The notes beneath the pieces are model-generated. The model was given only the letters and a program-made list of their open reading frames with translations. It made no database searches and had not been told where the DNA came from. From an uncultured Bacilli bacterium (GTDB lineage Bacteria > Bacillota_I > Bacilli_A > RF39 > UBA660): 64,000 nt of DNA. Each line of letters opens with the position of its first letter. The first letter of the stretch is position 1. The stretch lies in contig CANRGD010000002.1 of NCBI GenBank assembly GCA_947630105.1, forward strand, positions 258-64,257, in the 5' to 3' direction. Of this stretch, positions 4,800 through 64,000 are shown one piece after another. The position numbers and the translations under genes were made by a program.

Positions 4800-4804
4800 C
4801 TTAA

Positions 4805-5386: not shown

Positions 5387-5528
5387 ATTAATCTCATCCC
5401 TTTTTTATTTTTTATTTTCTAAGTGAATTATTACTTATAATAAACATAACTTAAAAAAATTAAAAATTCAATATCTTGTTAGGAAAATTTAGTAATATGA
5501 TATAATATAAATAATTGGAGGATAAATT

Positions 5529-7277: not shown

Positions 7278-7401
7278 AATTAACTTAAAAATAAGCTTAA
7301 TTTTCTTAATTGCAACTTAAACTTTGCAACATTTCCAAGTAAACTTGCTAGAATGCAACTTACTTATTTGCTAAAATCTTACTTGAAAGAGGTGAAAATA
7401 T

Positions 7402-8979
7402 ATGAAATTTGGTGATAAATTAATTTCATTAAGAAAAAAACAAGGCCTATCTCAAGAAGAGTTAGCGGAAAAATTGAAAGTATCTAGACAATCAGTTTCT
7501 AAATGGGAGAGTAATAATACTTATCCTGAAACTGATAAAATTATTCAAATATGCAATATTTTTAATTGTAATATGGATGATTTAATAAATGATAAAATAA
7601 CTGATATAGATCAATTAGAAAGAGTATCTAAAAGTAAGTTAAATATTGATTCATTTTTAGAATTTCTTACTAAAACTATTAATGTTTTTTCTAATATGAG
7701 TTTTTCTTCCTGTTTAAAGTGCTTAGTGGAATTGTTTATTTTAGGTTTAATTTTATTTTTAGTGGGAGGATTTATTTATTCTATATTAGATTATATTCTT
7801 TTAAAAGCTTTTTCTTTTATAAATTATAAAAATGGATTAAGAAATTTATTAGAGGCTATTCTTATTTTAATATGGTTGGTATTTTCAATAATAATTTTAA
7901 TTTATTATTTTAAAGTAAAATATCTAGATGAATTTGAACAATTATCAATTAATAAAGAAAAAGAAACCACTAAAAAGTTAAATAATACAAAGCCTTTAAA
8001 AGAAGAAAAAAATAAAATAAAAGTTAATTTTAAACATGAGCCGTTTGCATTTTTATCCATTTTATCAAAAATTGGGCTTTTGGCGATAAAATTTATAACA
8101 ACTTTAATTATATGTTCATTTATATGTATTTTATTTATTTTTTTAGTAATCTTTATTATTTTAATACCTTTATGTTTGGATGCTACTTTAATTTTAGGTA
8201 TAAATATTTCTCTTTTTTCAACAATTATATTTATTGGGGTTTTAACTTTAGCAATGCTTTTCTTTATTTTTAATAAAAAAATTTCTTTTAAGGTTACCTT
8301 AATTACTACTACAACTTCATTTTTATTTATTGCTTTAGGTGTAGCAATAACCATTTTATGTTTAAAAGATATGACTTTTAAATCTAATAAAGATGAATAT
8401 ATTGAAAAACAAATGTATAAAAAAGAACTTACTTATAATGATAAGATGTTTTTTGAATTTAATGACTCTTATTATCCGGATATTAATTATATTATTGATA
8501 ATTCTTTAGAAACAAATAAAATACTTCTTAGTGCTGAGTATGATAAGGCTTTATTAAAGTTAAATTTAAATAATTCTATAGAATCTGATTTAGTAAATTA
8601 TACTTTAAATTTTGATAGTAATTATCAATTTAAAGATATTTATGAAGATTTTTCTAAAAATTTACGAAATAAAGTTGTTAAAAATTATTCTTATATACCT
8701 ATTAGTAATATTAAAATAAGGGCTAATGAAGAGACAATTAATAAGTTACTTGCTAATTATTCTAAATTGTATTTAGCTAATATAAATAAAACTTCTACAG
8801 GATATAAAGTAAAATATATTGATGATAAAATAGAGATTAATGGATGGTGTGATGTTGAATATTATGTAAATGCTAATAAATTAGAAATATATAATTCTGA
8901 TTGTATGTGTAAAAAAGAGACTATGGATACAAGATATGGTCAAAAAATTGTTTTTAATTGTCAAGAGATGGATGTTTAA
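7402..8979 (+). CDS. XRE-family HTH transcriptional regulator fused to a multi-pass membrane domain and an extracytoplasmic C-terminal domain
   Basis: N-terminus LSQEELAEKLKVSRQSVSKWESNNTYPETDKIIQICNIF is a Cro/C1 HTH, followed by about 6 hydrophobic segments. Confidence 0.8.
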   Translation: MKFGDKLISLRKKQGLSQEELAEKLKVSRQSVSKWESNNTYPETDKIIQICNIFNCNMDDLINDKITDIDQLERVSKSKLNIDSFLEFLTKTINVFSNMSFSSCLKCLVELFILGLILFLVGGFIYSILDYILLKAFSFINYKNGLRNLLEAILILIWLVFSIIILIYYFKVKYLDEFEQLSINKEKETTKKLNNTKPLKEEKNKIKVNFKHEPFAFLSILSKIGLLAIKFITTLIICSFICILFIFLVIFIILIPLCLDATLILGINISLFSTIIFIGVLTLAMLFFIFNKKISFKVTLITTTTSFLFIALGVAITILCLKDMTFKSNKDEYIEKQMYKKELTYNDKMFFEFNDSYYPDINYIIDNSLETNKILLSAEYDKALLKLNLNNSIESDLVNYTLNFDSNYQFKDIYEDFSKNLRNKVVKNYSYIPISNIKIRANEETINKLLANYSKLYLANINKTSTGYKVKYIDDKIEINGWCDVEYYVNANKLEIYNSDCMCKKETMDTRYGQKIVFNCQEMDV

Positions 8980-41418: not shown

Positions 41419-43971
41419 TTATTTTTTTTCTTTTATTTGTTTTTTTAAATCATATAAAAAATTAAGGGCTTCCATAGGGGTCATTTCTAAAGGGTTAATT
41501 TGTTTCATAGCTTCTTCGGTTTTATTTTTCTTTTCTTCACTTTCTGCTTCACTTAACTCAAATAAAGAGGTTTGTGTGAAAACTTCTTTTTTAGTGCTTT
41601 TCTTTTCATAAACATCAAGAATTTCTTTGGCTCTTTTAATTAGTGAGGGCGGAAGTTTGGCAAGAGAAGCTACATGAATACCATAACTTTTATCAACGGC
41701 ACCATTTTTAATTTTATGGAGAAAAGTTACAGTACCATTTTCTTCGATGGCTGAAGCATGGACGTTTTTTAAGTGTTTTAAATCTCTTTCTAAAGCTGTT
41801 AATTCATGGTAATGAGTTGAAAACATAGTTTTGGCTTTTATTTTATCATGAATATATTCTAATATTGCTTGAGCTAAACTCATTCCATCATATGTGGCGG
41901 TTCCTCTACCTAATTCGTCAAAAAGAATAAGACTATTTTCTGTTGCTTCACTAATAGCATTATTAGCTTCTTTCATTTCTACCATAAAAGTAGATTCTCC
42001 ACTGACTAAATCATCACTAGCACCTATTCTAGTAAAAATTTTATCAAAAATAGGGATAGTACAACTTTTACATGGTACAAAGCAGCCCATTTGAGCCATG
42101 ATAATAGTTATGGCACATTGACGCATATAAGTTGATTTACCAGCCATATTAGGCCCAGTTATTAATAAGATATCTGTTGTTTTATCCATTATAATATCAT
42201 TAGGAATATATTTGTCTTTCATAACTTGTTCAACGACTGGATGACGACAATCAAGCATTTTTATTACTTTTTCATCAGTTATAGTAGGTCTTACAAATTT
42301 ATAAGTATCACTTACTATAGAAAAAGATTGTAGCATATCTAATTCACTAATTATTTTACTTGTCTGTTGAAGTTTTGATATATAACGTTTTACTACTTCT
42401 CTAATATCCATAAATATTTTATATTCTAAATTTATTATTTTTTCTTCGGCACCTAAAATAATATTTTCTTTTTCTTTTAAGACAGGTGTAATAAAGCGTT
42501 CACAATTAGCTAGAGTTTGTTTTCTTTCATAACCATATTCTTCTTTAATAAGATGGGTTTGACCTTTTGATACTTCAATAAAATAACCAAATACTTTGTT
42601 AAAGCCAACTTTTAAGGTTTTAATTTTTGTTCTTTTCCTTTCTTCTTGTTCCATTTCTAAGATAAAATCTTTAGAACCACTACTAATCTTTTTTAATTCA
42701 TCAAGTTCTACATTATATCCTGGTTTTATTAAATGTCCTTCATGTAAAGTAAAAGGAGCATCTTCTAGAATAGTTTTATCTAGTAGGGAATATAACTCTT
42801 CAAAAGTTTCAAGTTTTTTATCATATTTTAGTTGTGTTAGAATTTCTTGAAGCTTAGGCAAAACTTTAATAGAACTTTTTAATTGTAATAAATCTTTAGC
42901 ATTTAAATTTCCATAAGTTATTCTACTACATAAGCGTTCTAAATCATAAACTTGCGCTAAATTATCAATTAATTCATCTCGTAAGATAAATTCTGTTGAT
43001 AACTTGGAAACTATTTCATAGCGTCTTTCAATTTCTTTTTTATCTGTTAAAGGATTTTCAATATTATGCTTTAAATATCTACTACCCATAGCTGTTTTAT
43101 TTTTATCTAATAACCATAAAAGACTATTTTGTCTTTCTCTATTACGAATTGTTTCTACTAATTCTAAGTTCTTTTTAGTAGCGGCATCAAATTCTAAATA
43201 TTCTGAGGACTTTATGATAAGACATTTTTGAAGATGATGAAGATCGCCTTTTTTAGCATCAACAATATAATACAATAAATGTTTTAATGTTCTAATTAAT
43301 CTGATATCTTCTATATTTTTATATATATATTCATAATTTTTATCATTTAATTCTTCTTTTGTTATCGTAACTAAAATATCATAATTAGTTCGTAATTTTT
43401 CAACTATTTCTCGGTCAATAGTATCATTTACTATTATTTCTTTAAAATTATTTTTAATTATTTCTTTTATAACTTTGTCCGTTTCTCCTTCTACAAGAGT
43501 AGCATAAACTTCTCCCGTTGAAATATCTATGTAACTAATACCATAGCAATAAGAGAAAGAAAATATATTAGCAATAAAGTTATTATTCTTAGAATCAATA
43601 TTAGCATCAATTCTTGTTCCTTTAGTAATAACTTGTATGACATCCCTTTTAACCATGCCTTTTACTTCTTTGGGATCTTCTAATTGTTCACAAATAGCAA
43701 CTTTATAACCTTTATCGACTAATTCATCAACATAAGAGGCATAGGCGTGATGAGGAATTCCACACATTGGGACTCTTTCATCAAGACCGGCTTGTTTACC
43801 TGTTAAAGCAAGTTCTAAAATTCTAGATGTTAAAATAGCATCATCAAAGAACATCTCATAAAAATCTCCTAAGCGAAAAAAAAGAATACAGTCTTCATAT
43901 TTATCTTTAATATCCATGTATTGTTGCATCATAGGACTTAATTTTTCTCTATTTACTTCACAACGTTTCAT
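41419..43971 (-). CDS. mutS: DNA mismatch repair protein MutS
   Basis: N-terminal TPMMQQY.DIK...FFRLGDFYEMF mismatch-binding motif, Walker A GPNMAGKSTYMRQ, and DELGRGT. Confidence 0.95.
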   Translation of the reverse strand: MKRCEVNREKLSPMMQQYMDIKDKYEDCILFFRLGDFYEMFFDDAILTSRILELALTGKQAGLDERVPMCGIPHHAYASYVDELVDKGYKVAICEQLEDPKEVKGMVKRDVIQVITKGTRIDANIDSKNNNFIANIFSFSYCYGISYIDISTGEVYATLVEGETDKVIKEIIKNNFKEIIVNDTIDREIVEKLRTNYDILVTITKEELNDKNYEYIYKNIEDIRLIRTLKHLLYYIVDAKKGDLHHLQKCLIIKSSEYLEFDAATKKNLELVETIRNRERQNSLLWLLDKNKTAMGSRYLKHNIENPLTDKKEIERRYEIVSKLSTEFILRDELIDNLAQVYDLERLCSRITYGNLNAKDLLQLKSSIKVLPKLQEILTQLKYDKKLETFEELYSLLDKTILEDAPFTLHEGHLIKPGYNVELDELKKISSGSKDFILEMEQEERKRTKIKTLKVGFNKVFGYFIEVSKGQTHLIKEEYGYERKQTLANCERFITPVLKEKENIILGAEEKIINLEYKIFMDIREVVKRYISKLQQTSKIISELDMLQSFSIVSDTYKFVRPTITDEKVIKMLDCRHPVVEQVMKDKYIPNDIIMDKTTDILLITGPNMAGKSTYMRQCAITIIMAQMGCFVPCKSCTIPIFDKIFTRIGASDDLVSGESTFMVEMKEANNAISEATENSLILFDELGRGTATYDGMSLAQAILEYIHDKIKAKTMFSTHYHELTALERDLKHLKNVHASAIEENGTVTFLHKIKNGAVDKSYGIHVASLAKLPPSLIKRAKEILDVYEKKSTKKEVFTQTSLFELSEAESEEKKNKTEEAMKQINPLEMTPMEALNFLYDLKKQIKEKK

Positions 43972-52314: not shown

Positions 52315-52348
52315 ATAAAAAGACATTATCTTTATTTCGATAAGGTCT
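52315..52348 (-). terminator. Rho-independent terminator ending the glycopolymer operon
   Basis: Minus-strand stem AGACCTTATC / GATAATGTCT (one mismatch) followed by TTTTAT. It begins within the LCP stop codon. Confidence 0.65.
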
Positions 52349-54093
52349 TAATTTTTAACAACTTTTTTAATTTGCTTACTTGCAGTGGCAACTGTTTGTA
52401 AATTTGGTTCCATAACCCAATCAACATAATTTGTCATATGAACATAATCTTTTTTGTCTGTTCCATCTACAGCTTGTTCTATGATTTTCCATTTTCCTTT
52501 ATTATCTAAAGTAGTCTTAGCTAAATTATTAATTACTTCTCTTGGAATAGATGTTTCATATAAATTACTAAAAGAATCAAGAATATTGGTATAATTTGTA
52601 ATAGTATTAACATTATTTAATTTTTTAATAATTGCTAATAGGATTTGCCGACAGTTTTCTTGGCGAGCTCTATCTCTACCAGGTAAAGCTATTCTTTCTC
52701 TAGCTATAGTTAAGGCTTCAATACCATTAACATCTTGACAACCTTTTTTTACATATAATTTTTTACCTACTGTATCATTGTAAGTATTTAAAACTAAGGC
52801 ATGAGTCGTTTTAAATTCATAATCACTACAGAATGTTATTCCACCAATAGAATCAACTACTTCTACTAAACTAGTAGTATTTACTTTTATATAATAATCT
52901 ATTTTTATATCAAATAGATTTTCTAGAGCATGAATAGAAGTTTCTATTCCATAAGGTCCCATGTAACTTAAAGTATCTTTTTTACCATTATATTCTTTTA
53001 ATTCTAGATAATAATCACGAGGAATACTAGTCATTATAACTTTACTAGTACGCATATTAATACTAACAATCATATTAAAGTCCATATTAGTATTTGTAAA
53101 ATCAGTTCCTCCAATATATATATTAAATTCTTCTTTGGCTTCATTATTTTCTAGCTTTGTTTTAGATTTTACATCAATAGATAAAAGTACTTTAAAATCT
53201 TCTTCTTTTAAATTTTTATCTAATTCAAAAACTAAACTATAAGAAGATTTTTCAACATACATAAAATCTATTTTATTATTTTTTACATCAGTAAACATGG
53301 ATGTGACATCATCATAGGCTTGCAGATTAACTTCATATAATTTTTCTAATTCTTGATTAGCTTTTTTGATATTAGAAGTGTTTTTATAATATGCAACATC
53401 TCCTTCTATATCATATTTGGTATTTGAAGATGTAGCATTAGTTATAATATAATAAGTATTTGTATTTACTAAATATTCACTATTAAATGATTTATTTAAG
53501 AAATTATTCGTATTATGAAGATAATAACTTCCTGCTGTATTTATAATTATAGAAATTAATATAATAAATAGTGCTAAAACTTTTAAAAACTTTTTCTTAG
53601 AATTAAGTAAAAGAAAAGCAATAAATTGAATAAAGAGTAAAATAATTGATAAAATAATTAAATACATTGTGGGAATAATATTTAATTTTATAACTAAAAT
53701 TAAAAAGACTATTAAACAAATAAAACTAATTAGGGGAATAATATTTATTTTTTTTAGACGTTTTTTTACAACTACTTTTTTAGGTTTACTAGTAGTTTCA
53801 TATTCATCGTCGATTTTTATTTCTTCATCTTTATTATCTTCTTCATTTTCTACTAAGTCAGCTTGTTCTTTTAATGGTTTTCTATGACTTTTTTCTTCTT
53901 GTTTTAGTTTTTGCAAAATTTTATCTATATTTTCATCTTCTTCATATTCATCAGAAACTAAATCTGAATAATTAATTTCTTTTACTTTTTCATCAGTTTC
54001 TTCATCTAATATTTCAATTTCTTGTTCATATATTTTTTTGTTTTTAGTTTCACGACTTTCTTTTTCATGATTTTCATCTTTATACTTATTCAT
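52348..54093 (-). CDS. LCP (LytR-CpsA-Psr) family glycopolymer ligase with a long acidic N-terminal extension
   Basis: An LCP core (MTSIPRDYYL...TLSYMGPYG...VDSIGGITF...ALTIARER...RDRARQENCRQIL) follows about 110 acidic/Lys-rich residues and 2-3 TM segments. Confidence 0.85.
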   Translation of the reverse strand: MNKYKDENHEKESRETKNKKIYEQEIEILDEETDEKVKEINYSDLVSDEYEEDENIDKILQKLKQEEKSHRKPLKEQADLVENEEDNKDEEIKIDDEYETTSKPKKVVVKKRLKKINIIPLISFICLIVFLILVIKLNIIPTMYLIILSIILLFIQFIAFLLLNSKKKFLKVLALFIILISIIINTAGSYYLHNTNNFLNKSFNSEYLVNTNTYYIITNATSSNTKYDIEGDVAYYKNTSNIKKANQELEKLYEVNLQAYDDVTSMFTDVKNNKIDFMYVEKSSYSLVFELDKNLKEEDFKVLLSIDVKSKTKLENNEAKEEFNIYIGGTDFTNTNMDFNMIVSINMRTSKVIMTSIPRDYYLELKEYNGKKDTLSYMGPYGIETSIHALENLFDIKIDYYIKVNTTSLVEVVDSIGGITFCSDYEFKTTHALVLNTYNDTVGKKLYVKKGCQDVNGIEALTIARERIALPGRDRARQENCRQILLAIIKKLNNVNTITNYTNILDSFSNLYETSIPREVINNLAKTTLDNKGKWKIIEQAVDGTDKKDYVHMTNYVDWVMEPNLQTVATASKQIKKVVKN

Positions 54094-54136: not shown

Positions 54137-54604
54137 TTATAACATCTTTAATAATTTAGTATTAATTATTTCTCCTACAGCTGATTCATTACATTTATTA
54201 GGGGAAATATAATCAACAATATTTTTTATTTTTTCTATTGCGTCATTAGGACAAGCTTTAAAGCCACAATTAAGCATAGCTTCATAATCATTTTCATCGT
54301 CACCTATATAAGCGACATTGTCATAGGTTAAATTTTTGGCTGATAAAAGTTCATCTATTTTTTCTTTTTTATTAATTATATTTTGATAAACTTCACAAAT
54401 ATTCATTTCTTTAGCTCTATTTTCTACTATTTTTGATGTTCTTTTAGTTATTATTACAGTTGTAACTCCTAAAGAGGGCAATTTTTGTAGTGGTATAGTA
54501 TCATGACAATTAAAAGCTTTCATAGCTTCTCCATTAGGTCCCATATAAATTTTTCCATCTGTTAAAGTTCCATCAACATCTAAAATTAACATTTTTATTT
54601 TCAT
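54137..54604 (-). CDS. KdsC-like HAD-IIIA sugar-acid phosphate phosphatase
   Basis: LILDVDGTLTDGKIYMGPNGEAMKAFNCHD and YIGDDENDYEAM. The size (155 aa) and motifs match the KdsC / N-acylneuraminate-9-P phosphatase family. Confidence 0.8.
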   Translation of the reverse strand: MKIKMLILDVDGTLTDGKIYMGPNGEAMKAFNCHDTIPLQKLPSLGVTTVIITKRTSKIVENRAKEMNICEVYQNIINKKEKIDELLSAKNLTYDNVAYIGDDENDYEAMLNCGFKACPNDAIEKIKNIVDYISPNKCNESAVGEIINTKLLKML

Positions 54605-54620
54605 ACTTCACATCCTAATT

Positions 54621-55067
54621 TTACTTTTTTATATGTTTTTTTTCATACTCAACTATAGCATCAACCTTGGGGCCTGATCTTTTATTATAAACATAGCGAC
54701 AAGTAAAATAAGCATCTACTAATTCAAGGGCTAATTTATTGCCAATTGTTTGACTTCCTAAAGTAATGATATTACAGTTATTACTTAAACATGCTCGTTT
54801 GGCAGAGTAAACATCTGTTACATTAGCAGCATAAGCTCCATTTACTTTGTTAGCTGCAATCATCATTCCTATTCCAGTACCACAAATTAAAATACCTCTT
54901 TCGTATTCTTCATTAGCAACAGCTTCGGCTACTTTTATAGCTACATTAGCGTAAATAGGATCATCACTACCAAAATCTGTAACATCATGTCCTATATCTT
55001 TTAAAAATAAGGCAACTTCATTTTTTAATTTTTTGGCATTAGGATCACATCCAATTGCTACTTTCAT
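54621..55067 (-). CDS. RpiB/LacA/LacB family sugar-phosphate isomerase
   Basis: MKVAIGCDPNAKKLK...GILICGTGIGMMIAANK...NNCNIITLG in a 148-aa protein. Confidence 0.85.
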   Translation of the reverse strand: MKVAIGCDPNAKKLKNEVALFLKDIGHDVTDFGSDDPIYANVAIKVAEAVANEEYERGILICGTGIGMMIAANKVNGAYAANVTDVYSAKRACLSNNCNIITLGSQTIGNKLALELVDAYFTCRYVYNKRSGPKVDAIVEYEKKHIKK

Positions 55068-55095
55068 ATCTTAATATATCCTTTCAATTTTTATT

Positions 55096-56709
55096 TTATT
55101 TATTTTTTAAACAGCTACTAAATCTTGACTTAGTAATTAGAGTTATTGGTTCTTTGTGTTTCCTTGTTTCCATATAATCTCTTAACATCTTAGCTGTATC
55201 TTCATTAATGATTTTAAAGTCTTCTTTTACTTTTAATAATTCTAAATCTTTTGTGGCATAATTTTCTTTTCCTATATCATAACCATCAAATCCTGCAATA
55301 TTAATTGACTTAACATTTAATAAATCTAGTAATCTCATTAAAAGAATTGTGGAATTATCTAAATGTTCCCATCCACATTTAACTAATCTAGAAAATGATA
55401 CAATATATTCATTATCACTTGTTGCTTTGTTTTTGATATTAGATGTTATTATTTTATTTTTATTATATGATTCTAGTTTTTCTAATGAACTATATCTTCT
55501 TGTATTACTTATATAAACATAATCTATATTAATATTTTCTGGAATAAAACTAATTGATATAATTGTAGGCCTATATTGATTTATAAAATTTTGAATTTTT
55601 TTGTGTTCTTCTTTAATAGAATATCCTGGAGAAAGTATTAATATATCTTTTCCTTGAAGTTCTTGTTGTAATCTTTTGATAGTTTTTGCGTCATCTATAT
55701 CAGATGACATATATTTTAAATATGTTTCTTCTAAGAGATTATGAATAGCTTTTTTTCTAGCAATAGAACCAACTTGATTTAATATATATCTCATATCTTT
55801 TGAATGAATACTACTTTTATTTGCTAAATATTGAATATTATCTACATGACAACCATATGCTCCAGCAATAAAATATTCAGTATTATATCCCCAATTACAT
55901 TTTGTACGAATGTTGTCCATGTAATCATCAATAATATCAAGTAGGGAATCCATGTCATAATTATATTCCCATTTTGTATTTAAATACTGGGCAATTAATT
56001 CTGTTGGAGTATTACCTGCTCCTCTTCCCATTCCTGAAATAGTTCCATCTATTATTACATCTCTTTTACCAAAAGTCATACGAGCAAATTCTTGAGATAA
56101 GGAATTGGATAATTGCATATTATTGTGTGAATGAAATCCTATTCTACATGTTGATACTAAATTATGATTAATTATTTCAAATATTCTATGTAAATCTTCT
56201 TGATACATTGACCCAAAAGTATCAACAATAGAAAAACAGTAAGGCTCTATTTCATTTACTAATTTTATTAAATCTAATAATTCTTCATCCGTATAACCTA
56301 AAATATCTACTGGTTGAACAAATAATTTATAGCCTTTTTCTTTTATTTTTTTACAATTTTCTAATGCTTTAAACCTTTCATCTTTTTTAAAGCATTCACG
56401 TATTCCATCAATAGATTTAGGATCACAATTATCTAAATTATCAAGTGTATATCTACTATAATCAGATAAAACTGTAAAAAGGCAACCATTTTTATCTTTT
56501 GGAATATACTTTTTAACTTCTTTCGAATTTTTATATACAGTTTTTCCTGTCCCTGTTTCAGTATCTTGAAAAAAGCCTACTTCTATTATGTCAATTTTAG
56601 CTTTAACCAAACCGGAAATAATTCCTAATATGTTATTTTCGCCAAAATTCTTATTTAATAAATAAGCTCCATCTCTTAATGTACAATCTAATAATTTTAC
56701 ATGTTTCAT
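55096..56709 (-). CDS. DRE-TIM (HMGL-like) pyruvate-aldolase domain fused to a ~200-aa C-terminal domain of unknown function
   Basis: LLDCTLRDGAY (DxxxRDG), IGFHSHNN (HxH metal site) and ISGMGRGAGNTPTE, as in 4-hydroxy-2-oxovalerate aldolase / isopropylmalate synthase catalytic domains. The C-terminal part ends in ...SINIAGFDGY.... Confidence 0.7.
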   Translation of the reverse strand: MKHVKLLDCTLRDGAYLLNKNFGENNILGIISGLVKAKIDIIEVGFFQDTETGTGKTVYKNSKEVKKYIPKDKNGCLFTVLSDYSRYTLDNLDNCDPKSIDGIRECFKKDERFKALENCKKIKEKGYKLFVQPVDILGYTDEELLDLIKLVNEIEPYCFSIVDTFGSMYQEDLHRIFEIINHNLVSTCRIGFHSHNNMQLSNSLSQEFARMTFGKRDVIIDGTISGMGRGAGNTPTELIAQYLNTKWEYNYDMDSLLDIIDDYMDNIRTKCNWGYNTEYFIAGAYGCHVDNIQYLANKSSIHSKDMRYILNQVGSIARKKAIHNLLEETYLKYMSSDIDDAKTIKRLQQELQGKDILILSPGYSIKEEHKKIQNFINQYRPTIISISFIPENINIDYVYISNTRRYSSLEKLESYNKNKIITSNIKNKATSDNEYIVSFSRLVKCGWEHLDNSTILLMRLLDLLNVKSINIAGFDGYDIGKENYATKDLELLKVKEDFKIINEDTAKMLRDYMETRKHKEPITLITKSRFSSCLKNK

Positions 56710-56714
56710 TTTTA

Positions 56715-57374
56715 TTACTTCCTAACTATAATATTTGAATAAATTGCATTAGCAATCTCAAAATCTTCTGGATAATCTATATCAACACATTCAATTCCTT
56801 TTACTTCGGTTATATGAATTTTGCCTCCAATTCTTCTATGCTTAGTTTCATATAATTTTTTTGAAAATGCATATATTGCTGTAGTTTCACTATAAAGAGG
56901 GTCTAAATCTTGAGTTCTGGGAACATTGGTAGGATCAAAATTTAAAGCATTACCATCATCTTTCCATAATAGTTTTTGAATTTTTTCACCTGTAAATGAG
57001 GAATCGAATTTACCACTTTTTACTGCCTTGCAACATTCACTAATATGTGTAACTGTTACAAATGGTGATGTACAATTGCACATAACATACACATCTGCAT
57101 CTTTTATTTTCATAAATTCTTGGATTAAATTATTAGCTGTTGCTTTATCGGTATCTAAAAATGAAGGCCTTTTCAAAAAATTAACTTTGGGAATTAAATA
57201 ATCTTTTATTGTTTCATCACTACAAAAAACGTATATTTCATCTATCTCTTCACATTTAACTAATGTTTTTAAAAAAGCTGTTATTAAGGGAGTCCCATCA
57301 CTAAATTTTTTTGTATTTTTACCTGGCGTTCTTTGATTATTTAATTTAATTGGAACAAATGCTATAGTTTTCAA
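56715..57374 (-). CDS. Acylneuraminate/ulosonate cytidylyltransferase family protein (CMP-sugar-acid synthetase)
   Basis: N-terminus IAFVPIKLNNQRTPGKN (the P-loop-like CTP-binding motif of the CTP_transf_3 family). 219 aa, TTG start behind AGGAGTGA. Confidence 0.75.
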   Translation of the reverse strand: MKTIAFVPIKLNNQRTPGKNTKKFSDGTPLITAFLKTLVKCEEIDEIYVFCSDETIKDYLIPKVNFLKRPSFLDTDKATANNLIQEFMKIKDADVYVMCNCTSPFVTVTHISECCKAVKSGKFDSSFTGEKIQKLLWKDDGNALNFDPTNVPRTQDLDPLYSETTAIYAFSKKLYETKHRRIGGKIHITEVKGIECVDIDYPEDFEIANAIYSNIIVRK

Positions 57375-57498: not shown

Positions 57499-58926
57499 TT
57501 AATTTTTAATATAAATTTTATTTATTATTTCTTTTCTTTTTATAAAAATAATACTTACAATAATAACAATTATTAAATATCTCATTAAATAAAATTTATA
57601 TAGTGGTATTATAAGTAAAGATATTATTACAAATCCTAATGAAATAAGAAATATTTTTTTATCATCATAGTAACTAACACCAGGAGCATGTTTTTTTACA
57701 ATCTTTTTCATAAATATAAAATGTCCTACGGCATATAAAATATAACTTATTAAGGTTGTATATCCTGCTGCTAAATAACCAAATAATTTTATAAATATTA
57801 AATTTGTAACAATATTTACTATGGCTGCCATTAAAGATGCAATAGTTACGTATTTTGTTTCTGAGTAATAATATTCTATATTAGCAAACAAGTTAAATAA
57901 AAACATAAAATAAACGCTTCCTGTTATTGCAGGAATTATATAAATTGCCTCAAAATATTCTTTTGGTGCAAATATTTTAACTGCTTCAGGGGCAAATAAA
58001 ATCAGCAAAATATTTAAAATTGCTACTAAAATTATTAAAAAATTAGCATTTTGTTTTAATGATGATAATCCTTTATTATTTTTAATAGTTTTATATGTCA
58101 ATGGAGTTAATGATTTTAAAATAGCATCATTAACAATTATTAATAATGAAGATAAACTATAAGCTAAACTATATATTCCAGCTTGAGAAGCGCCACACAT
58201 ATCATTTATCATAATTCTATCAAATCTTGTTAAAACTTGAGTGGCTAAAAAATGGGGAATTAAGGGAATGCAATATATTAAAATAAATTTTATATATTTT
58301 TTATTAAATCTGTTTTTACTTTTTGAATAATTATAAATATAAACTATTAATCCAATAATAATATTAATTGTTGCTACTCCGTATATTCTTCCATAACCTT
58401 TATTAGGAATATATTTTATAGCAAGAAGTCCTAGTATAGGACCCATTATACCAATGATAATTGAAGCAAAAGTAACTAATTTATATTTAAAATTATATCT
58501 TTCTTTTGATGCCCACAAATTAAAAACAGCAAATGCTAACATATCAAAAAATAGTAGAATGACAATTGGCAAAGGAAATCCTATGATATTATTTTTTATT
58601 ATATTAATTATAAAATACAACACAAAACATAATAAAGTTAAGCCCGTAACTAATGATTGAGCAGTGGCGATAAATCCTTCTTTATCTTCATCATATTTTG
58701 CTAAGCCTGAATATGTTGCGTAATTAAATACATTTAGGGATGTAAAAATTATAAAAATATCATGCCATGATTGATATAAGGTATATTGAGCGTATTGACT
58801 AGTAGTAAGTATTCTAGTAAAAATGGGTGTAGCTAAAATTGTAACTCCCCTTTGAATAATATTAGCAATAAAAGCCCATAATGATGCCTTAGCTACTATT
58901 GATAATTTTTGATATTTTTTTAGCAT
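57499..58926 (-). CDS. Wzx-type oligosaccharide flippase (MOP superfamily)
   Basis: 475 aa with about 12-14 TM segments. Its N-terminal pattern and its location in a glycan locus are typical of polysaccharide biosynthesis (PST) proteins. Confidence 0.7.
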   Translation of the reverse strand: MLKKYQKLSIVAKASLWAFIANIIQRGVTILATPIFTRILTTSQYAQYTLYQSWHDIFIIFTSLNVFNYATYSGLAKYDEDKEGFIATAQSLVTGLTLLCFVLYFIINIIKNNIIGFPLPIVILLFFDMLAFAVFNLWASKERYNFKYKLVTFASIIIGIMGPILGLLAIKYIPNKGYGRIYGVATINIIIGLIVYIYNYSKSKNRFNKKYIKFILIYCIPLIPHFLATQVLTRFDRIMINDMCGASQAGIYSLAYSLSSLLIIVNDAILKSLTPLTYKTIKNNKGLSSLKQNANFLIILVAILNILLILFAPEAVKIFAPKEYFEAIYIIPAITGSVYFMFLFNLFANIEYYYSETKYVTIASLMAAIVNIVTNLIFIKLFGYLAAGYTTLISYILYAVGHFIFMKKIVKKHAPGVSYYDDKKIFLISLGFVIISLLIIPLYKFYLMRYLIIVIIVSIIFIKRKEIINKIYIKN

Positions 58927-58933
58927 TTTATCA

Positions 58934-60289
58934 CTACTTTCTTTTCGATTTTACTTTATCTTTATAAACTTCAAACTTTTCTCCTCTATAACCATCTAAT
59001 TTATAGTCTAAATCAAATTTATAATATATTTTTCTAGCTAATAATGAATTTTTAAATATTTTTCTTAATTTTTTAATTGGTAAATACCAACACCAAAGAT
59101 ATATATAAGAGCCAAAAGGAATTTTTATATTATTTTTTTTGGCTGTTTCTTTCATATCTCTAACATAAGAAATTTTTTGTTGGCCCATCATTTTACCTAT
59201 ATATTTTGTTTTATGTTTTAAAAAATTATTTATATCCATAACATCTTTTAAACTATCTAATTTTCCAAAAGCATAAAAATCAGTCATTGTTCTTAAACAT
59301 TTACTACATAAAGAACAATTTTTTAGATGTTTTCTTTCTTCTTTGCAAAAATACTTAACTCCACATATCATTAAATGTTTTTTCATTGGTAAATAATCAG
59401 CAATATATTCTTCCCGTTCAATTCTACTACATTCCATTCCTGATGAATAAAAACTTAAATTTTCTGTATTCATACAAAATAAAGTAAAAATATCGAATAC
59501 ACTACTATCATGGCCATCAGTTTTTGTTAAATCAAAATTAATTGATTCTATTGTTTCTCCAGCACTGGCATAATAAATATTAATTAATTTTTGTAGAGCA
59601 AAAGCTACTGAACCAAAAGTAGTTGTATAAAACATGTTAAATGCTTTATAAGGAAATTTATAAAATTCGAATAAATTATTATAACATCCTATGGTATCTA
59701 AATGACAATCAGTAGCTAATTTTTTAACTTCCTCATAAGTGTTTTTAAATGTGGAAGTCATCCTTTGTTCTACATTGTCAAGAGTTCCACTTGAACTATA
59801 AACTAAATGTGTCAATTTATGTTCTTTTGTTATACAATTTTGCCCATTTTTTAAAATAGTATAAAATGAATCTATTCCTCCACTACAACCAGTTGCTACT
59901 TTCTTTTCATTTTGTATTTCTTTATTATTATGAGGGCCTATTAATTTTATAGGATAAACTGGATAAGTAGCATTATATTTTGATAATATTGGTATATAAT
60001 AAGTTGTTAATTGATAATATAATCTTTCAGAAATAGGGGCTATAAATTCTATATTATTTCCTGTTTCTAAGGCACTTGACAACAGTCCCATAACGAATGC
60101 ATCACTACGAGTAACACATAAATATTCTTTATATTTTTCTTCAAATTCATAATAACATTTTTTTGTTTCGAGTTTATTATTATTTGGATTTTCCATTGTA
60201 ATATCAGCACATAATTTAACTGATTTCTCAAAAATATTTGATTTTCCTTCTTCTATATATGGTTTGGATATTTTTATTGTTTTTTGCAT
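58934..60289 (-). CDS. PP-loop (SGGxDS) ATP-pyrophosphatase-superfamily protein of unknown function, intact paralogue
   Basis: VATGCSGGIDSFYT (SGGIDS = 59867-59884) and a late Cys cluster NCSLCSKCLRT. 451 aa, roughly two-thirds identical by eye to the neighbouring gene. Confidence 0.6.
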   Translation of the reverse strand: MQKTIKISKPYIEEGKSNIFEKSVKLCADITMENPNNNKLETKKCYYEFEEKYKEYLCVTRSDAFVMGLLSSALETGNNIEFIAPISERLYYQLTTYYIPILSKYNATYPVYPIKLIGPHNNKEIQNEKKVATGCSGGIDSFYTILKNGQNCITKEHKLTHLVYSSSGTLDNVEQRMTSTFKNTYEEVKKLATDCHLDTIGCYNNLFEFYKFPYKAFNMFYTTTFGSVAFALQKLINIYYASAGETIESINFDLTKTDGHDSSVFDIFTLFCMNTENLSFYSSGMECSRIEREEYIADYLPMKKHLMICGVKYFCKEERKHLKNCSLCSKCLRTMTDFYAFGKLDSLKDVMDINNFLKHKTKYIGKMMGQQKISYVRDMKETAKKNNIKIPFGSYIYLWCWYLPIKKLRKIFKNSLLARKIYYKFDLDYKLDGYRGEKFEVYKDKVKSKRK

Positions 60290-60360: not shown

Positions 60361-61715
60361 CTAACGTTTTAATTTATCTTTATACATTTCATATTTTGGT
60401 CCACGATAACCATCTAATTTATAATCTAAATTAAATTTATAATATATTCTTCTAGCTAATAATGAATTTTTAAATGTTTTTCGTAAACATTTAATTGGTT
60501 TATACCAAAAATATGCATAAATATAAGAGCCATGTGGTATTTTGACATGATTTTTTTTGGCAAAGGCTTTAACATCTTTTATATATGATGATTTGGATAA
60601 ACCAATCATTCTTCCTATCCATTTTGTTTTATGTTTTAAAAAATTATTTACATCAAAAGCTTTGCCAAACTTTGTAATATCTTCCCCCCCCCACATACAT
60701 ATAACTCTGTAAGGGTTCTTAAACATTTTTCACATATTGAGCAATTTAATACTGAATTTTTATTAATATCTTGAAATGAACTATAAGGACAGACACTTAA
60801 ATATTTTTGGACAAGTGGTTCTTTTATAATATATTCTATCTTATCTATTCTTCTACATTCCATTCCTGATGAATAAAAGCTTAGATTTTCTGTATTCATA
60901 CATGATAATGTAAATACATCAAAAACTTGGCTATCATGTCCATTAATTCTATCTAAATCAAGACTAAATTCTGAAATTGGGCCTCCAGAACTTATATAAT
61001 ATATTTTAATTAATTTTTGTAGAGCATAAGCGATAGATCCATTTGTTGTAGAATAAAACATATTAAAAGCTCTAAATGGAAATTTATAAAATTCATATAA
61101 ATTGTTATAACAAGCAATTGTTTTTAAATTAGCTTCTTTTGCCATCGCTTCAACTTCTTCTAATTTTTTTAAATATGTCTTTTTTATTCTTTCTTCATTG
61201 TTATCAGAAGTGCAGTTGGAATTAAAGACAATATGCGTTAATTTGTTAGTTGCAATATCACATATTTTTCCATGCTTTATAATTGTATAAAAAGAATCAA
61301 CTCCTCCAGAATATCCAGTTGCGACTGCTTTACTATTTTCTATTTTTGTATTATCAAGATCTCCTATTAATTTTATAGAATGCATAGGATAAGTTGGATT
61401 ATGTTTTGAAACCATAGGAATATAATAGGTTGTTAATTGATAATATAATTTTTCAGAAATTGGGGCTTTAAATTCTATATCATAACCAAGTTCCATGGCA
61501 CTAGATAAAATTCCCATAACAAAAGCATCACTACGAGTATCACATAAATATTTTTTATATTCCCTATTAAATTCAAAATAGCACTTCTTTTTTTCTAACT
61601 TTTGAGTATTTGGATTTTCCATTGTTATATGAGCACATAATTTAACAGAATTTTTAAATATATCGGATTTTTCCTCTTCAATAAATGGTTTGGATATAAT
61701 TATTTTCTTTTTCAT
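60361..61715 (-). pseudogene. PP-loop paralogue split by a frameshift in a poly-G tract (currently OFF; candidate phase-variable gene)
   Basis: ORFs 60648-61715 and 60361-60726 are the two halves of one homologue of 58934-60289. The frames switch inside G9 (60684-60692). G10 or G7 would give CGGGEDITKFGKAFDV... and a 451-aa product. Confidence 0.85.
60684..60692 (-). repeat. Homopolymeric G9 (C9 on the + strand) tract
   Basis: Counted directly: cttCCCCCCC CCacat. It is the only G/C run of 8 or more that I could find by eye in the window. Confidence 0.95.
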
Positions 61716-61730
61716 AACTTTAAACTCCTT

Positions 61731-62876
61731 TTACTTAATCTTATTTTCCTTTATTTCTTCTAATAAGTTATTAAACTCTGTTACAGTTTTAGGAAAATAT
61801 ACCCCTTTTTTACCTTTTATTGCTTCAAAATTTTCCCAAAATTGAGAATATTTTTCATTCATGCAAATTGAATTTGTTTTTATCATTTTAAATAACATAA
61901 TTCCTATAAAATTATTTCCAAAAAACATTTTATAATTTGGTATTGTATTACTATTAATTGCAATAAACACTTTATCAGAAAAATCATTTGTAAAAGTTAT
62001 TGCTTCCCATGGAATACCATCACTTCCTAATGTTTTTATTCCTTTTTTACTAAATCTATTATTCTCAATTCTAGGATGTAATTTAATTATAACATTTTCT
62101 TTTCCAACTTTTTTAATTACTTGGTCATACAGTTTTTCATCATCTATTGTAGGATCATTAGCAATCAATGCTTCTTCAAATATAATGTATTTTCGATCAT
62201 ATTTTTTAGCAATATCACCAACTTCAAAAATATCTGTTATGTAATTTATTATTTTTTTATTATTTTTTTTACGATCAATTTTATAAACTGGATATTTTGG
62301 TTTTTTTATTAATAAATTTGGTTCAAATAAATATAGCCCATCAATATTTTCTCTAATTACATTAGAATACCCATAAATTCTATTTCTATATTCAATTAAT
62401 TTTAAAAATCCTTTTTTGGGAATAATTTCTTCAATTGGAAAATATGAAACATAACCTTCATCAAATAAATATATTTTAATAGGTTTTTTTATAAAAGAAA
62501 AATAACTTCTAAAGCTTGCAGAAAAGGCATCATAATTCCAACAATACATTTCATCATATAATTCTATATTTCCTATAGTTTTCTTTAACATGTATTTTGG
62601 TCTTAAAATGTAATATAACTTTTTCAAATTAGTAAAATAATATTTAAAATCAATATTTTTTTGTTTGACTATTGGTAATAAAGTGTTTTTTATTTTAACA
62701 ATATATATATTATCAAATATATGTTTTTCTTTTATTCTTTGAGCTACTTTTTCATAATTATTAAAAGTATCAGTTATAATCAAGTCAACTTTATCTTTTT
62801 CTTTACAAAATTGTTCTTTAATATAAAGTGCAACAATTATTTGATAAGGTGTTTGAACCATTATAACTTTTTTCAT
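61731..62876 (-). CDS. Putative glycosyltransferase (N-terminus resembles GT52 sialyltransferase-like enzymes)
   Basis: MKKVIMVQTPYQIIVALYIKEQF resembles the xxIIxxTPLQxLIAxxI start of GT52 proteins. It is a soluble 381-aa protein inside a glycan locus. The call rests on recollection only. Confidence 0.35.
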   Translation of the reverse strand: MKKVIMVQTPYQIIVALYIKEQFCKEKDKVDLIITDTFNNYEKVAQRIKEKHIFDNIYIVKIKNTLLPIVKQKNIDFKYYFTNLKKLYYILRPKYMLKKTIGNIELYDEMYCWNYDAFSASFRSYFSFIKKPIKIYLFDEGYVSYFPIEEIIPKKGFLKLIEYRNRIYGYSNVIRENIDGLYLFEPNLLIKKPKYPVYKIDRKKNNKKIINYITDIFEVGDIAKKYDRKYIIFEEALIANDPTIDDEKLYDQVIKKVGKENVIIKLHPRIENNRFSKKGIKTLGSDGIPWEAITFTNDFSDKVFIAINSNTIPNYKMFFGNNFIGIMLFKMIKTNSICMNEKYSQFWENFEAIKGKKGVYFPKTVTEFNNLLEEIKENKIK

Positions 62877-62963: not shown

Positions 62964-64000
62964 TTACTTACTTTTTTCATTTATCTCTTTACTACTTCTG
63001 ATTTCTAAAAGCCCTGACATTAATAAGTAACAATATATTCCAAATATTTGATGAATATTACATACATAAGACTCTACTAAAGAAGAAATAAGTAAGATAA
63101 TAAAAATTCCAATTATAAGTATTTTTTGCCTTTTATCTTCTAGAGATAAGGCCTTTTTTATTATATAAATATATGAAAATAAAAAACCAAGCAAACCAAT
63201 AACTCCATTTTTTATTAACGTATTTATAAAACCCATTTCATAGGAACCATTATATCCATTTAACTTATTTTCTTTTAAAAATTTTCTTATATTCCAAATA
63301 TAAGAGTCATCTTTTTTAAATGCCATTTCGGAATAACCAAAATATAAATGAAATTTATCTTTTTTAACAAATTTTAAATAATTTTCTACTCCTCGTATAC
63401 GATAAGCATAGGTTTTACTTTTTAATATAAAGTTTTTATATGTAAAACTACCAAATATTATAAAAACAAATATTATAATAATAGAAAAAATAATTTTAAT
63501 ACCCGGTGAGAATTTTTTTGGGGGAATTTTTTTATAGATTTTTGGATTATTCAAAAATTCTAATAAAACAAATAATAAGAATAAGATGTATCCTCCTCTA
63601 GATACAGTAATTATTTCTAATATTCCAAGAAAAAATAATACTAATAAATCAATATTTTGCTTTTTTTCATGTCTATAATATAATAATAGTCCCATAAAAC
63701 TAGCCAGTATAGTAGTAGAAAGAAAATTTTTAAATTGCATACCGCCTGTAAATGCATATTTTATGGGAAAGGAAAAGGCAGTATCGTTAATTTTTTCTAA
63801 TACGCTTGTTCCTGTTATTAAGGCAATGGTAGTGGTTGCTAAAATTCCAAAGATTAACCCATAGGATGCAGCTCTTATATTTTTATAATTATTTAAGTAT
63901 TTACTCGATAAAATAATATAAACTGCTAAGGCAATCATAGTTAATATTAATCTTAATTTTGTAAATATATCTAAATTTTGGAATATCAATCCTATACAAA
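62964..64000 (-). CDS. Wzy/O-antigen-ligase-like polytopic membrane protein (5' end probably beyond the window)
   Basis: About 10 TM segments with a larger loop region (residues ~190-250 of the visible part). The frame is still open at nt 64000, and the TTG at 63989 is only the first in-window start. Confidence 0.5.
   Translation of the reverse strand, partial: CIGLIFQNLDIFTKLRLILTMIALAVYIILSSKYLNNYKNIRAASYGLIFGILATTTIALITGTSVLEKINDTAFSFPIKYAFTGGMQFKNFLSTTILASFMGLLLYYRHEKKQNIDLLVLFFLGILEIITVSRGGYILFLLFVLLEFLNNPKIYKKIPPKKFSPGIKIIFSIIIIFVFIIFGSFTYKNFILKSKTYAYRIRGVENYLKFVKKDKFHLYFGYSEMAFKKDDSYIWNIRKFLKENKLNGYNGSYEMGFINTLIKNGVIGLLGFLFSYIYIIKKALSLEDKRQKILIIGIFIILLISSLVESYVCNIHQIFGIYCYLLMSGLLEIRSSKEINEKSK

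What the first reader, a model, noticed from the sequence alone, without database searches (positions are those of the whole stretch)
60684..60692. Poly-G9 tract frameshifts one PP-loop paralogue: a candidate phase-variation switch
The upstream paralogue is split into 355-aa and 121-aa ORFs exactly at a run of nine G (nine C on the + strand). The upstream frame reads ...LYVCGGGKILQSLAKLLM-stop. The downstream frame reads ...WGGEDITKFGKAFDVNNFLKHKT... and aligns with the intact paralogue. One extra G (G10), or loss of two (G7), restores a 451-aa protein of exactly the neighbour's length. If C is about 12% of bases (my estimate, not computed), the expected number of C9/G9 runs in 64 kb is on the order of 10^-3, and I saw no other G/C run longer than 5-6. 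Homopolymeric G tracts inside surface-glycan modification genes are the classic slipped-strand contingency loci of Campylobacter, Neisseria and Haemophilus. They are far less documented in spore-forming Bacillota.
Basis: partly seen in the sequence, partly recalled or inferred. Interest (0 to 1): 0.75.

Follow-up and report, generated by a model that had tools for sequence, protein, structure and literature searches.

The report
Poly-G on/off switch in capsule gene
A run of nine G's breaks one of two neighbouring sugar-coat genes in an uncultured gut Clostridia-like bacterium, and the same gene in a near-identical strain from another sample carries thirteen G's and is intact, so this is most likely a slippage-driven on/off switch of the kind known from Campylobacter and Neisseria.

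Summary
C9 at 60684-60692 (G9 on the coding minus strand) is the only G/C run longer than 5 in 64 kb. It splits a 451-codon gene (60361-61715) into 355-aa and 121-aa ORFs. G10 restores 451 aa; G7 gives 450, not 451.

The decisive result came from a neighbour-gene look-up. It found the same locus in another sample (L008, run DRR855137), 99.65% identical over 3.7 kb. The single indel between the two is this tract. L008 has G13, and the gene there is intact at 452 aa. One OFF and one ON allele therefore exist, with identical flanks and no other inactivating lesion. GGG makes up only 7% of Gly codons here. None of 89 homologues has the tract. It lies in a length-tolerant loop.

The gene belongs to an unannotated family with an invariant SGGxDS motif and a weak PP-loop fold match. 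The family recurs next to CMP-ulosonic-acid capsule genes.

Best reading: a slipped-strand contingency locus in a spore-former lineage with an intact MutS. This is a new member of a known kind. Switching rate and within-population heterogeneity remain untested, because no reads were available.

The parts
60684..60692 (-). Homopolymeric G9 tract (C9 on the + strand). This is the hypermutable switch. ON lengths are 7, 10 and 13 (3n+1); here it is OFF.
   Evidence: The same site is G13 in L008 7185-7197.
60361..61715 (-). Gene A: the phase-variable member of an unannotated PP-loop-like family. It is one 451-codon gene if the tract is G10, and it is frameshifted in this window.
   Evidence: The intact 452-aa allele is at L008 6162-7520.
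60648..61715 (-). Upstream (OFF-state) ORF of 355 aa. Residues 1-344 are authentic, followed by an 11-residue out-of-frame tail, KILQSLAKLLM. It keeps the SGGVDS motif and the Cys cluster but loses the C-terminal helical domain.
   Evidence: (P0001 is identical).
60361..60684 (-). Downstream coding segment in the -1 frame (107 codons plus stop, starting EDITKFGKAFDV...). It is the C-terminal helical domain of gene A and still matches the family consensus.
   Evidence: The source record called a 111-aa ORF at 60361-60696.
61293..61310 (-). SGGVDS (residues 136-141 of gene A), the PP-loop signature. It is invariant or nearly invariant in 90 family members.
60723..60746 (-). NCSICEKC (residues 324-331), an invariant N-C-x2-C-x-K-C cysteine cluster on the helix just before the tract.
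58934..60289 (-). Gene B: the intact 451-aa paralogue, with no tract. It has GGA AAA at the equivalent site.
   Evidence: AF2 model pLDDT is 94.7.
61731..62876 (-). 381-aa protein, probably a GT38-like (polysialyltransferase-like) CMP-sugar transferase.
   Evidence: It has no Pfam hit itself. Its 43%-identical relative in L011 hits PF07388 at E 3.9e-12.
62964..64000 (-). Wzy-type repeat-unit polymerase. It runs off the window end and is 416 aa in L008.
57499..58926 (-). Wzx-type flippase.
54137..57374 (-). CMP-ulosonic-acid cassette: KdsC-like phosphatase (54137-54604), RpiB-like isomerase (54621-55067), HMGL-type aldolase fusion (55096-56709) and CMP-sugar cytidylyltransferase (56715-57374).
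   Evidence: The same cassette lies next to family genes in L007, L011, L014 and L029.
52348..54093 (-). LCP (CpsA-like) glycopolymer-to-wall transferase, at the end of the glycan locus.
41419..43971 (-). Intact MutS (850 aa). It is context, not part of the switch: the organism is not obviously mismatch-repair deficient.
   Evidence: (TIGR01070, 1018 bits).

Best explanation
The G tract is a simple-sequence contingency locus. During replication, slipped-strand mispairing in the G run adds or removes G's. This shifts gene A between a full-length reading frame (G7, G10, G13) and truncated ones (all other lengths), reversibly and at a rate far above point mutation. In this window the switch is OFF. 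The G9 product stops 11 codons after the tract and lacks the last 107 residues, which form the C-terminal helical domain.

Gene A and its intact neighbour B are paralogues (59-64% identity) of an uncharacterised PP-loop-like family. That family travels with a CMP-ulosonic-acid biosynthesis cassette, a GT38-like transferase, Wzx and Wzy in a Wzy-dependent capsule-type locus.

Switching A on or off most likely changes one ATP-dependent modification step of the sugar repeat unit. It would not abolish the polymer, so the population would be mixed in surface-glycan structure.

Shown: the tract, its frame logic, its rarity, ON and OFF alleles in two strains, and the absence of other lesions. Inferred: the replication-slippage mechanism, a high switching rate, the enzyme's chemistry and the surface phenotype.
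For: 1. The tract is real and statistically exceptional.
2. Frame logic: G7, G10 and G13 give 450, 451 and 452 aa, and other lengths give 353-356 aa.
3. Tract-length polymorphism: L008 (Logan assembly of DRR855137) matches the window over 3746 nt at 99.65%, with 9 substitutions and one gap. The gap is the tract, G13 versus G9. L008 gene A is an uninterrupted 452-aa ORF reading ...YVCGGGGEDITKF....
4. There is no other stop or frameshift in either allele. The four amino-acid differences fall in variable family columns.
5. The tract is not needed for the protein. GGG is 7% of Gly codons in the window (P about 4e-4 for three in a row), and the only GGG codons in gene A are those of the tract.
6. 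None of 89 homologues has GGG there, and all but one have a loop 2-3 residues shorter.
7. In the AF2 model (pLDDT 94.7) the site is a loop between helices 329-340 and 344-347.
8. The downstream segment keeps the family-conserved residues.
9. Glycan-locus context.
10. A second case exists in a related locus: a G9 splits a CTP_transf_3 paralogue in L010.
Against: Only two alleles were seen, from assemblies rather than reads. There is no measure of heterogeneity within a population or of switching rate.

The two strains differ by 4 G's, which shows mutability but not reversibility. MutS is intact, so rates may be lower than in Campylobacter, which lacks mismatch repair (own knowledge).

No other long G/C tract occurs in the 64 kb or in L003-L005, L008 and L009. 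A genome-wide 'phasome' is therefore not shown.

Eight of the nine substitutions between the two strains lie in gene A (Fisher p = 0.0017). This could also mean relaxed constraint on a gene that is being lost.

The enzymatic function is unknown.
Confidence: 0.7

Rival explanations
1. Homopolymer length error. The true tract in this organism is G10 and the gene is simply intact. The frameshift is an artefact of assembly or consensus calling.
For: Long G runs are error-prone in short-read data. Other contigs of the same organism come from about 2x-coverage SPAdes assemblies. Clear poly-G artefacts exist in the related metagenome contigs L022 and L023. A single missing G would explain everything.
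Against: An independent sample has a tract at exactly the same site with a length 4 nt different. A long G run is therefore real there, and its length really varies. Both flanks are collinear with homologues, unlike the degraded, duplicated flanks of the artefacts. Even if the true length were G10, the tract would remain a hypermutable switch that is currently ON.
Confidence: 0.12
2. Plain pseudogene. A redundant paralogue is being lost, and the G run is just where the first inactivating indel happened.
For: Gene B could cover the function. Substitutions between the two strains are concentrated in gene A (8 of 9, p = 0.0017), with 4 non-synonymous against 4 synonymous changes. At three sites the window allele is derived relative to both L008 and gene B.
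Against: There is no second lesion in 1.35 kb. The downstream 107 codons are as similar to gene B (64%) as the upstream part is (59%). An ON allele exists in a sister strain. The tract itself is an improbable, codon-usage-defying insertion rather than a random indel site.
Confidence: 0.1
3. Recoding without DNA change. RNA-polymerase slippage, or a -1 ribosomal frameshift on G GGG GGG, makes some full-length protein from the G9 template, so the gene is leaky rather than OFF.
For: The downstream frame is -1 relative to the upstream frame, and tRNA-Gly can re-pair perfectly after a -1 slip within the run. The product would equal the G10 protein (sequence logic). Homopolymer runs of 9 or more are known slippage sites for RNA polymerase (own knowledge, mainly for A/T runs).
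Against: No stimulatory structure lies downstream: the fold of 60590-60700 gives -16.8 kcal/mol, z = -1.1, and 26 of 200 shuffles fold as well. The tract is absent from all homologues, so it is not a conserved recoding signal. DNA-level variation is directly observed. This can add to the DNA switch but does not replace it.
Confidence: 0.08

Closest known systems
Campylobacter jejuni poly-G contingency genes in the capsule and flagellin-glycosylation loci. Cj1295 is documented in PMC3068675. The maf paralogues and the adjacent Cj1421/Cj1422 MeOPN transferases are cited from my own knowledge.
   Same: An intragenic G tract of about 8-13 lies in a glycan-modification gene of an AT-rich genome. 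The tract sits in one of several adjacent paralogues. ON/OFF switching is by frameshift. The locus is built around a CMP-activated ulosonic acid.
   Different: The host is a Gram-positive, spore-former-type lineage with an intact MutS. Campylobacter lacks MutS/MutL-type repair (own knowledge). The gene family is different and unannotated. Only one tract was found in 64 kb, against about 30 per C. jejuni genome. Switching has not been measured.
Neisseria and Haemophilus simple-sequence contingency loci. pgtA poly-G is documented in PMC2193922; meningococcal homopolymeric tracts in PMC5084427.
   Same: Slipped-strand frameshifting of surface-glycan genes, with ON and OFF alleles among closely related strains.
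   Different: A different phylum and a different gene family. Here the evidence is comparative only.
Homopolymeric-tract switches in Bacillota. Listeria inlA poly-A is documented in PMC2831843. Bacillus subtilis swrA poly-A and Staphylococcus icaC repeats are cited from my own knowledge.
   Same: Frameshift switching at a coding homopolymer in a mismatch-repair-proficient Gram-positive.
   Different: Those are A/T tracts, which fit the AT-rich composition. Here the tract is a G run that goes against both composition and codon usage. PMC2831843 notes that poly(C) and poly(G) tracts are generally under-represented.
PP-loop ATP pyrophosphatases (TilS/MesJ 1ni5 and 2e21, NcsA 6scy, QueC, MnmA). 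This concerns the gene product, not the switch.
   Same: An invariant SGGxDS motif, an alpha/beta nucleotide-binding core, and a Cys cluster after the core as in QueC and NcsA.
   Different: There is no significant sequence-profile match. Fold matches are weak (E 0.01-0.05, TM 0.27-0.37). The extra N-terminal beta domain and the C-terminal helical domain have no counterpart. The substrate is presumably a sugar, not a tRNA.

Membership tests
Simple-sequence-repeat contingency (phase-variable) locus | A long homopolymeric or short-unit repeat inside the ORF or its promoter. | tested here: met
   G9 lies at codons 342-344 of gene A, and G13 in L008.
Simple-sequence-repeat contingency (phase-variable) locus | Changes of repeat number toggle between a full-length and a truncated product. 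| tested here: met
   G7, G10 and G13 give 450-452 aa, and other lengths give 353-356 aa.
Simple-sequence-repeat contingency (phase-variable) locus | Repeat-number polymorphism among near-identical strains with conserved flanks, with both ON and OFF states seen. | tested here: met
   The window has G9 (OFF) and L008 has G13 (ON). The tract is the only indel in 3.7 kb at 99.65% identity. Only two strains were compared.
Simple-sequence-repeat contingency (phase-variable) locus | The repeat is more frequent than composition or coding need explains. | tested here: met
   The expected number is 3.5e-4 to 1e-2 per window. GGG is 7% of Gly codons. The tract is absent from 89 homologues.
Simple-sequence-repeat contingency (phase-variable) locus | Length heterogeneity within a clonal population, with a reversible switching rate of about 1e-5 or higher per division. 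| not testable with these tools
   No reads or cultures were available.
Simple-sequence-repeat contingency (phase-variable) locus | A selectable surface phenotype linked to the ON/OFF state. | not testable with these tools
   Only the locus context was available.
PP-loop ATP pyrophosphatase superfamily | The SGGxDS/T pyrophosphate-binding loop. | tested here: met
   S136, G137, G138, D140 and S141 are invariant or at least 90% conserved in 90 sequences.
PP-loop ATP pyrophosphatase superfamily | The adenine-nucleotide alpha-hydrolase (HUP) fold. | tested here: inconclusive
   AF2 pLDDT is 94.7. The four best Foldseek PDB hits are all PP-loop enzymes, but with E 0.01-0.05 and TM 0.25-0.37.
PP-loop ATP pyrophosphatase superfamily | A significant match to a curated PP-loop profile. 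| tested here: not met
   Pfam and NCBIfam give no hit at E up to 0.01. Only 7 of 90 members touch tRNA_Me_trans, with a best E of 0.0095, and one touches QueC at 0.05. The PDB profile search gives 0 hits.
N-acetyl-sugar amidotransferase (PseA/WbuX type, TIGR03573) | A match to the family model. | tested here: not met
   NCBIfam gives no hit for either paralogue.
Programmed -1 ribosomal frameshift site | A slippery heptamer plus a downstream stimulatory structure, conserved among homologues. | tested here: not met
   The G run can serve as a slippery site. However, the downstream fold is not better than shuffles, and the site is unique to this gene.

The most novel reading that the evidence does not exclude
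Poly-G contingency tracts may be a recurrent, independently evolved feature of CMP-ulosonic-acid capsule loci in gut anaerobes, both Clostridia-like Bacillota and Bacteroidota-type loci, and may operate despite intact mismatch repair. In this reading they act on paralogue pairs (PP-loop gene A/B here, two CTP_transf_3 genes in L010). Each tract would then toggle one decoration of the capsule. That would make simple-sequence repeats a second layer of capsule phase variation in the gut, alongside invertible promoters, and would give a genetic handle on an uncharacterised PP-loop sugar-modifying enzyme family.
Probability: 0.25. Interest if true: 0.6.

Novelty: new member of a known kind. Interest (0 to 1): 0.45.

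Why it matters
Slippage-driven on/off switching of surface-sugar genes is textbook biology for a few Gram-negative mucosal pathogens. It is hardly documented for anaerobic spore-forming gut Bacillota. Full-text searches that combined Clostridium or Clostridia, homopolymeric tracts, phase variation and capsule or polysaccharide returned only Campylobacter, Helicobacter and general papers.

A tract that defies a 25%-GC genome's composition and codon usage, and that differs in length between two near-identical strains, suggests such organisms also diversify their capsule this way. This bears on phage and immune escape in gut communities. It also bears on annotation, because such genes get called as two fragments or as pseudogenes.

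The finding also flags an unannotated enzyme family, found in more than 400 metagenome stretches, that is tied to CMP-ulosonic-acid capsule loci.

Tried and rejected
- **Exact look-ups with nothing on record.** Gene B, the 355-aa ORF and Wzx returned nothing. Only the 381-aa neighbour led to other samples.
- **Genome-contig scan.** It found only one 61%-identical relative (L002, a rabbit-gut Clostridia MAG). The source genome is not in that collection.
- **DNA pattern scan.** Searching for the left flank plus G6 in the JGI metagenomes gave 0 hits.
- **Truncated homologues.** P0054, P0049 and P0064 looked like candidate frameshifts. They are N-terminally short gene calls or contig ends, not tract-site truncations.
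- **L022 and L023 poly-G runs.** These contigs carry G13, G16 and a contig-start G7 inside a family gene. I rejected them as evidence, because the duplicated and progressively degraded flank looks like a two-colour-chemistry poly-G artefact.
- **Ten contigs carrying P0040.** I fetched them to compare the L010 tract across samples. The L010 segment that holds the tract has no DNA counterpart in them.
- **Gene conversion from gene B.** I considered this as the source of the SNP cluster in gene A. No window allele matches B. Three L008 alleles do, which fits ancestry rather than conversion.
- **MutS homology search for a taxon name.** There were many hits at 83-85% identity, and none carried a name.
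- **PDB sequence-profile search.** It gave no hits.
- **Direct BLASTP of the 381-aa protein against a PF07388 protein.** It showed nothing. The link is only transitive, through L011.

Full report
**1. Observation**

Window 60684-60692 is CCCCCCCCC on the + strand, which is G9 on the coding minus strand. The window is 25% G+C (C 12.3%, G 12.8%). Every other C or G run is at most 5 bases long. The expected number of C runs of 9 or more is 3.5e-4 (independent bases) or 2e-3 (first-order Markov); for G runs the values are 5e-4 and 1e-2.

The tract separates a 355-aa ORF (60648-61715) from a 121-aa ORF (60361-60726) in the -1 frame. Both align collinearly with the intact 451-aa paralogue at 58934-60289, at 59% and 64% identity. 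Editing the tract in silico gives 451 aa for G10, 450 aa for G7 and 452 aa for G13. All other lengths from 6 to 12 truncate at 353-356 aa. The only correction is that G7 gives 450 aa rather than 451.

**2. The tract is not there for the protein**

- GGG is the rarest glycine codon in the window's ORFs (70 of 979, or 7%). Three in a row has a probability of about 4e-4. The only GGG codons in gene A are the tract itself.
- Paralogue B reads TTT GGA AAA TTA at this site. The closest homologue (P0002, 64% identity) reads CTT GGT GAT GGT ACT, and P0004 reads TTT AAT AAA TTA.
- Across 89 homologues the segment has a fixed length (consensus LYAxGKLDxF). The exception is P0002, which has two extra residues. 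None has Gly-Gly-Gly there.
- An AlphaFold model of paralogue B, built on a 90-sequence alignment, has mean pLDDT 94.7 and pTM 0.92. It places the site in a short loop between helices 329-340 and 344-347.

The G run is therefore a lineage-specific expansion of one conserved Gly codon, in a loop that tolerates insertions. That is the typical placement of an in-frame contingency repeat.

**3. Decisive comparison**

The source record itself (an NCBI contig of 66,737 nt) is not indexed for gene A or B. An exact look-up of the product of the adjacent 381-aa gene found two other assemblies.

- L009 (SRR29273039) ends at codon 159 of gene A, before the tract.
- L008 (DRR855137, an 8.2-kb contig) aligns to the window over 3746 nt at 99.65% identity, with 9 substitutions and one gap. 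The gap is the tract.

L008 positions 7185-7197 are G13, with flanks identical to the window's. L008 gene A (6162-7520) is an uninterrupted 452-aa ORF reading ...LYVCGGGGEDITKFGKAFDV.... That is exactly the product predicted for G13.

Two strains of one species therefore carry an OFF (G9) and an ON (G13) allele. Neither allele has another stop or frameshift. The four amino-acid differences (E175K, G245D, I257T, V322A) fall in variable alignment columns.

For scale, there is at least one length-change event at this one site, and four if changes happen in single-G steps. The per-site substitution divergence is 0.0024, so the tract mutates at least hundreds of times faster than an average site. 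This is an inference.

**4. What the gene is**

Neither paralogue matches any Pfam or NCBIfam model, nor any PDB sequence profile.

Conserved features:
- S136, G137, G138, D140 and S141 are invariant or nearly invariant. This is the SGGxDS PP-loop signature.
- An N324-C325-x2-C328-x-K330-C331 cluster, together with C309.

Foldseek's four best PDB matches are all PP-loop enzymes: NcsA 6scy (two chains), MesJ/TilS 1ni5 and TilS 2e21. They are weak, however (E 0.01-0.05, TM 0.25-0.37). A relaxed Pfam scan touches tRNA_Me_trans in 7 of 90 members and QueC in one.

I therefore treat the product as a distant PP-loop-type ATP pyrophosphatase with an unknown substrate. Its membership in any curated PP-loop family was tested and not met.

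**5. Locus context**

All genes from 52348 to the window end are on the minus strand:
- LCP/CpsA-like transferase
- KdsC-like phosphatase
- RpiB-like isomerase
- HMGL-type aldolase fusion
- CMP-sugar cytidylyltransferase
- Wzx
- gene B
- gene A
- a 381-aa protein
- Wzy

The 43%-identical relative of the 381-aa protein in L011 hits the polysialyltransferase family PF07388 at E 3.9e-12. L008 shows that an acyltransferase-3, a GT4 and a GT2 lie just beyond the window end.

Family genes sit next to the same cytidylyltransferase, aldolase, Wzx and 381-aa-type genes in L001, L002, L007, L011, L012, L014, L016, L029, L032 and others.

This is a Wzy-dependent capsule-type locus built around a CMP-activated 3-deoxy-ulosonic acid. 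Two PP-loop paralogues presumably carry out ATP-dependent modification steps. The chemistry is inference. Adenylation of a sugar carboxylate or carbonyl followed by amide formation is what PP-loop enzymes do elsewhere (own knowledge).

**6. Organism**

The window encodes the following:
- a SpoIVB-like peptidase (282 bits, against a cutoff of 305);
- a YtvI-like match that is well below its cutoff and ties with an efflux-transporter model;
- HelD_BACSU, above its cutoff;
- an LCP protein and a DltB-like protein;
- an intact MutS with the full domain set.

The nearest related locus is in an 'uncultured Clostridia' rabbit-gut MAG. No named relative was recovered. 'Low-GC, probably spore-forming Clostridia-type Bacillota' is reasonable but not proven. 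mutL was not seen in the window.

**7. Mechanism and rivals**

The best explanation (confidence 0.70) is slipped-strand mispairing at the G run. This gives reversible ON/OFF switching of gene A, with ON at 3n+1 G's. The window is OFF and produces a protein that lacks its 107-residue C-terminal helical domain.

The rivals are:
- **Length error of one G in this assembly (0.12).** This cannot be excluded without reads. It would only change the current state, not the nature of the site, because an independent sample has a tract of a different length at the same place.
- **Plain pseudogene (0.10).** This is favoured only by the clustering of 8 of 9 substitutions in gene A (Fisher p = 0.0017). It is disfavoured by the lack of any second lesion, the undiminished similarity of the downstream segment, and the ON allele.
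- **Transcriptional slippage or a -1 ribosomal frameshift (0.08).** The frame geometry allows it. However, there is no downstream structure (z = -1.1) and no conservation of the site.

**8. Comparison with known systems**

The site works like the poly-G contingency genes of Campylobacter jejuni glycan loci (for example Cj1295, PMC3068675) and of Neisseria (pgtA, PMC2193922; PMC5084427). The sequence-level criteria for a contingency locus were tested and met. The population-level criteria (heterogeneity, rate, phenotype) could not be tested.

It differs in three ways: the host lineage, the presence of MutS, and the gene family. Homopolymer switches reported in Bacillota are mainly A/T tracts (PMC2831843 for Listeria; own knowledge for B. 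subtilis swrA). PMC2831843 also notes that poly(C) and poly(G) tracts are generally under-represented.

Full-text searches found no report of such a switch in a clostridial polysaccharide locus. This covers the held library only.

**9. Verdict**

It is a new member of a known kind of system. Interest is moderate at 0.45. The mechanism is classical, but the host group, the cross-sample ON/OFF evidence from metagenomes, and the link to an unannotated enzyme family make it worth a read-level follow-up.

Noticed in passing
L010 3604-3612 (human-gut metagenome contig ORTS01000045, 108 kb, 42% GC): A second G9 tract in a related capsule locus. It splits a CTP_transf_3 cytidylyltransferase gene into an 84-aa piece (3413-3667, Pfam positions 2-58) and a 172-aa piece (3579-4097). 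An intact paralogue (4161-4868) and a 48%-identical family gene (4946-6352) lie directly downstream. G8 or G11 would restore the frame. The upstream integrase and UpxY-like gene suggest a Bacteroidota-type locus.
   Followed up: partly
L035 8279-8287; L045 3031-3040; L041 1070-1077: Further long G/C runs inside ORFs of glycan loci that carry a family gene. L035 has G9 near the 3' end of a PGA_cap gene. L045 has C10 in frame in a 431-aa ORF (...QLGGGCSCGR...). L041 has G8 between two GT1 domains of a 525-aa ORF. All are in contigs of 32-45% GC, where such runs are unexpected.
   Followed up: partly
L022 1294-1306 and 1487-1502; L023 1-7: G13 and G16 runs sit after a duplicated and progressively degraded copy of the 5' end of a family gene, and a sister contig starts with G7. 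They look like poly-G sequencing or assembly artefacts. This is a warning for any automated poly-G survey of metagenome contigs.
   Followed up: partly
window 60361-61715 versus L008 6162-7520: Eight of the nine substitutions between the two strains over 3.7 kb lie in gene A (4 non-synonymous, 4 synonymous; Fisher p = 0.0017). Wzy and the 381-aa gene together have one. At three sites the window (OFF) allele is derived relative to both L008 and gene B. The cause could be relaxed constraint, diversifying selection or recombination, and it is unresolved.
   Followed up: partly
window 60694-60696: An ATG in the downstream frame sits immediately 5' of the tract (ATG TGG GGG GGG GAA). The source record called a separate 111-aa ORF from it (60361-60696). 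No convincing Shine-Dalgarno sequence precedes it. Separate expression of the C-terminal domain in the OFF state seems unlikely but was not tested.
   Followed up: no
window 41419-43971: An intact MutS (850 aa; TIGR01070, 1018 bits) lies about 17 kb from the tract. No mutL lies next to it; nusB and xseA follow instead. Hundreds of uncultured relatives share 83-85% MutS identity, so this is a well-populated but unnamed clade.
   Followed up: partly
window 55096-56709: A 537-aa fusion protein. Its N-terminal half is an HMGL-type (DRE-TIM) aldolase, and its C-terminal roughly 230 residues have no family match. It is conserved next to the cytidylyltransferase in L007, L011, L012, L014, L016, L018, L029 and L041. 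It probably stands in for KdsA/NeuB-type synthases in this ulosonic-acid pathway.
   Followed up: no
window 446-692: A tandem repeat with 18/36/72-bp periods (about 13 copies of TCAGCATCAGCAACACCA, 66-87% matches) lies inside ORF 8-709. It encodes a Ser/Ala/Thr/Pro-rich repetitive protein and may be another length-variable surface protein.
   Followed up: no
L096 3527-4516: In one of ten near-identical Bacteroidota-type loci carrying P0040, the PF07388 polysialyltransferase-like gene is split into 73-aa and 248-aa calls. It is a single 329-aa gene in the other loci where it is complete. The cause was not examined.
   Followed up: no
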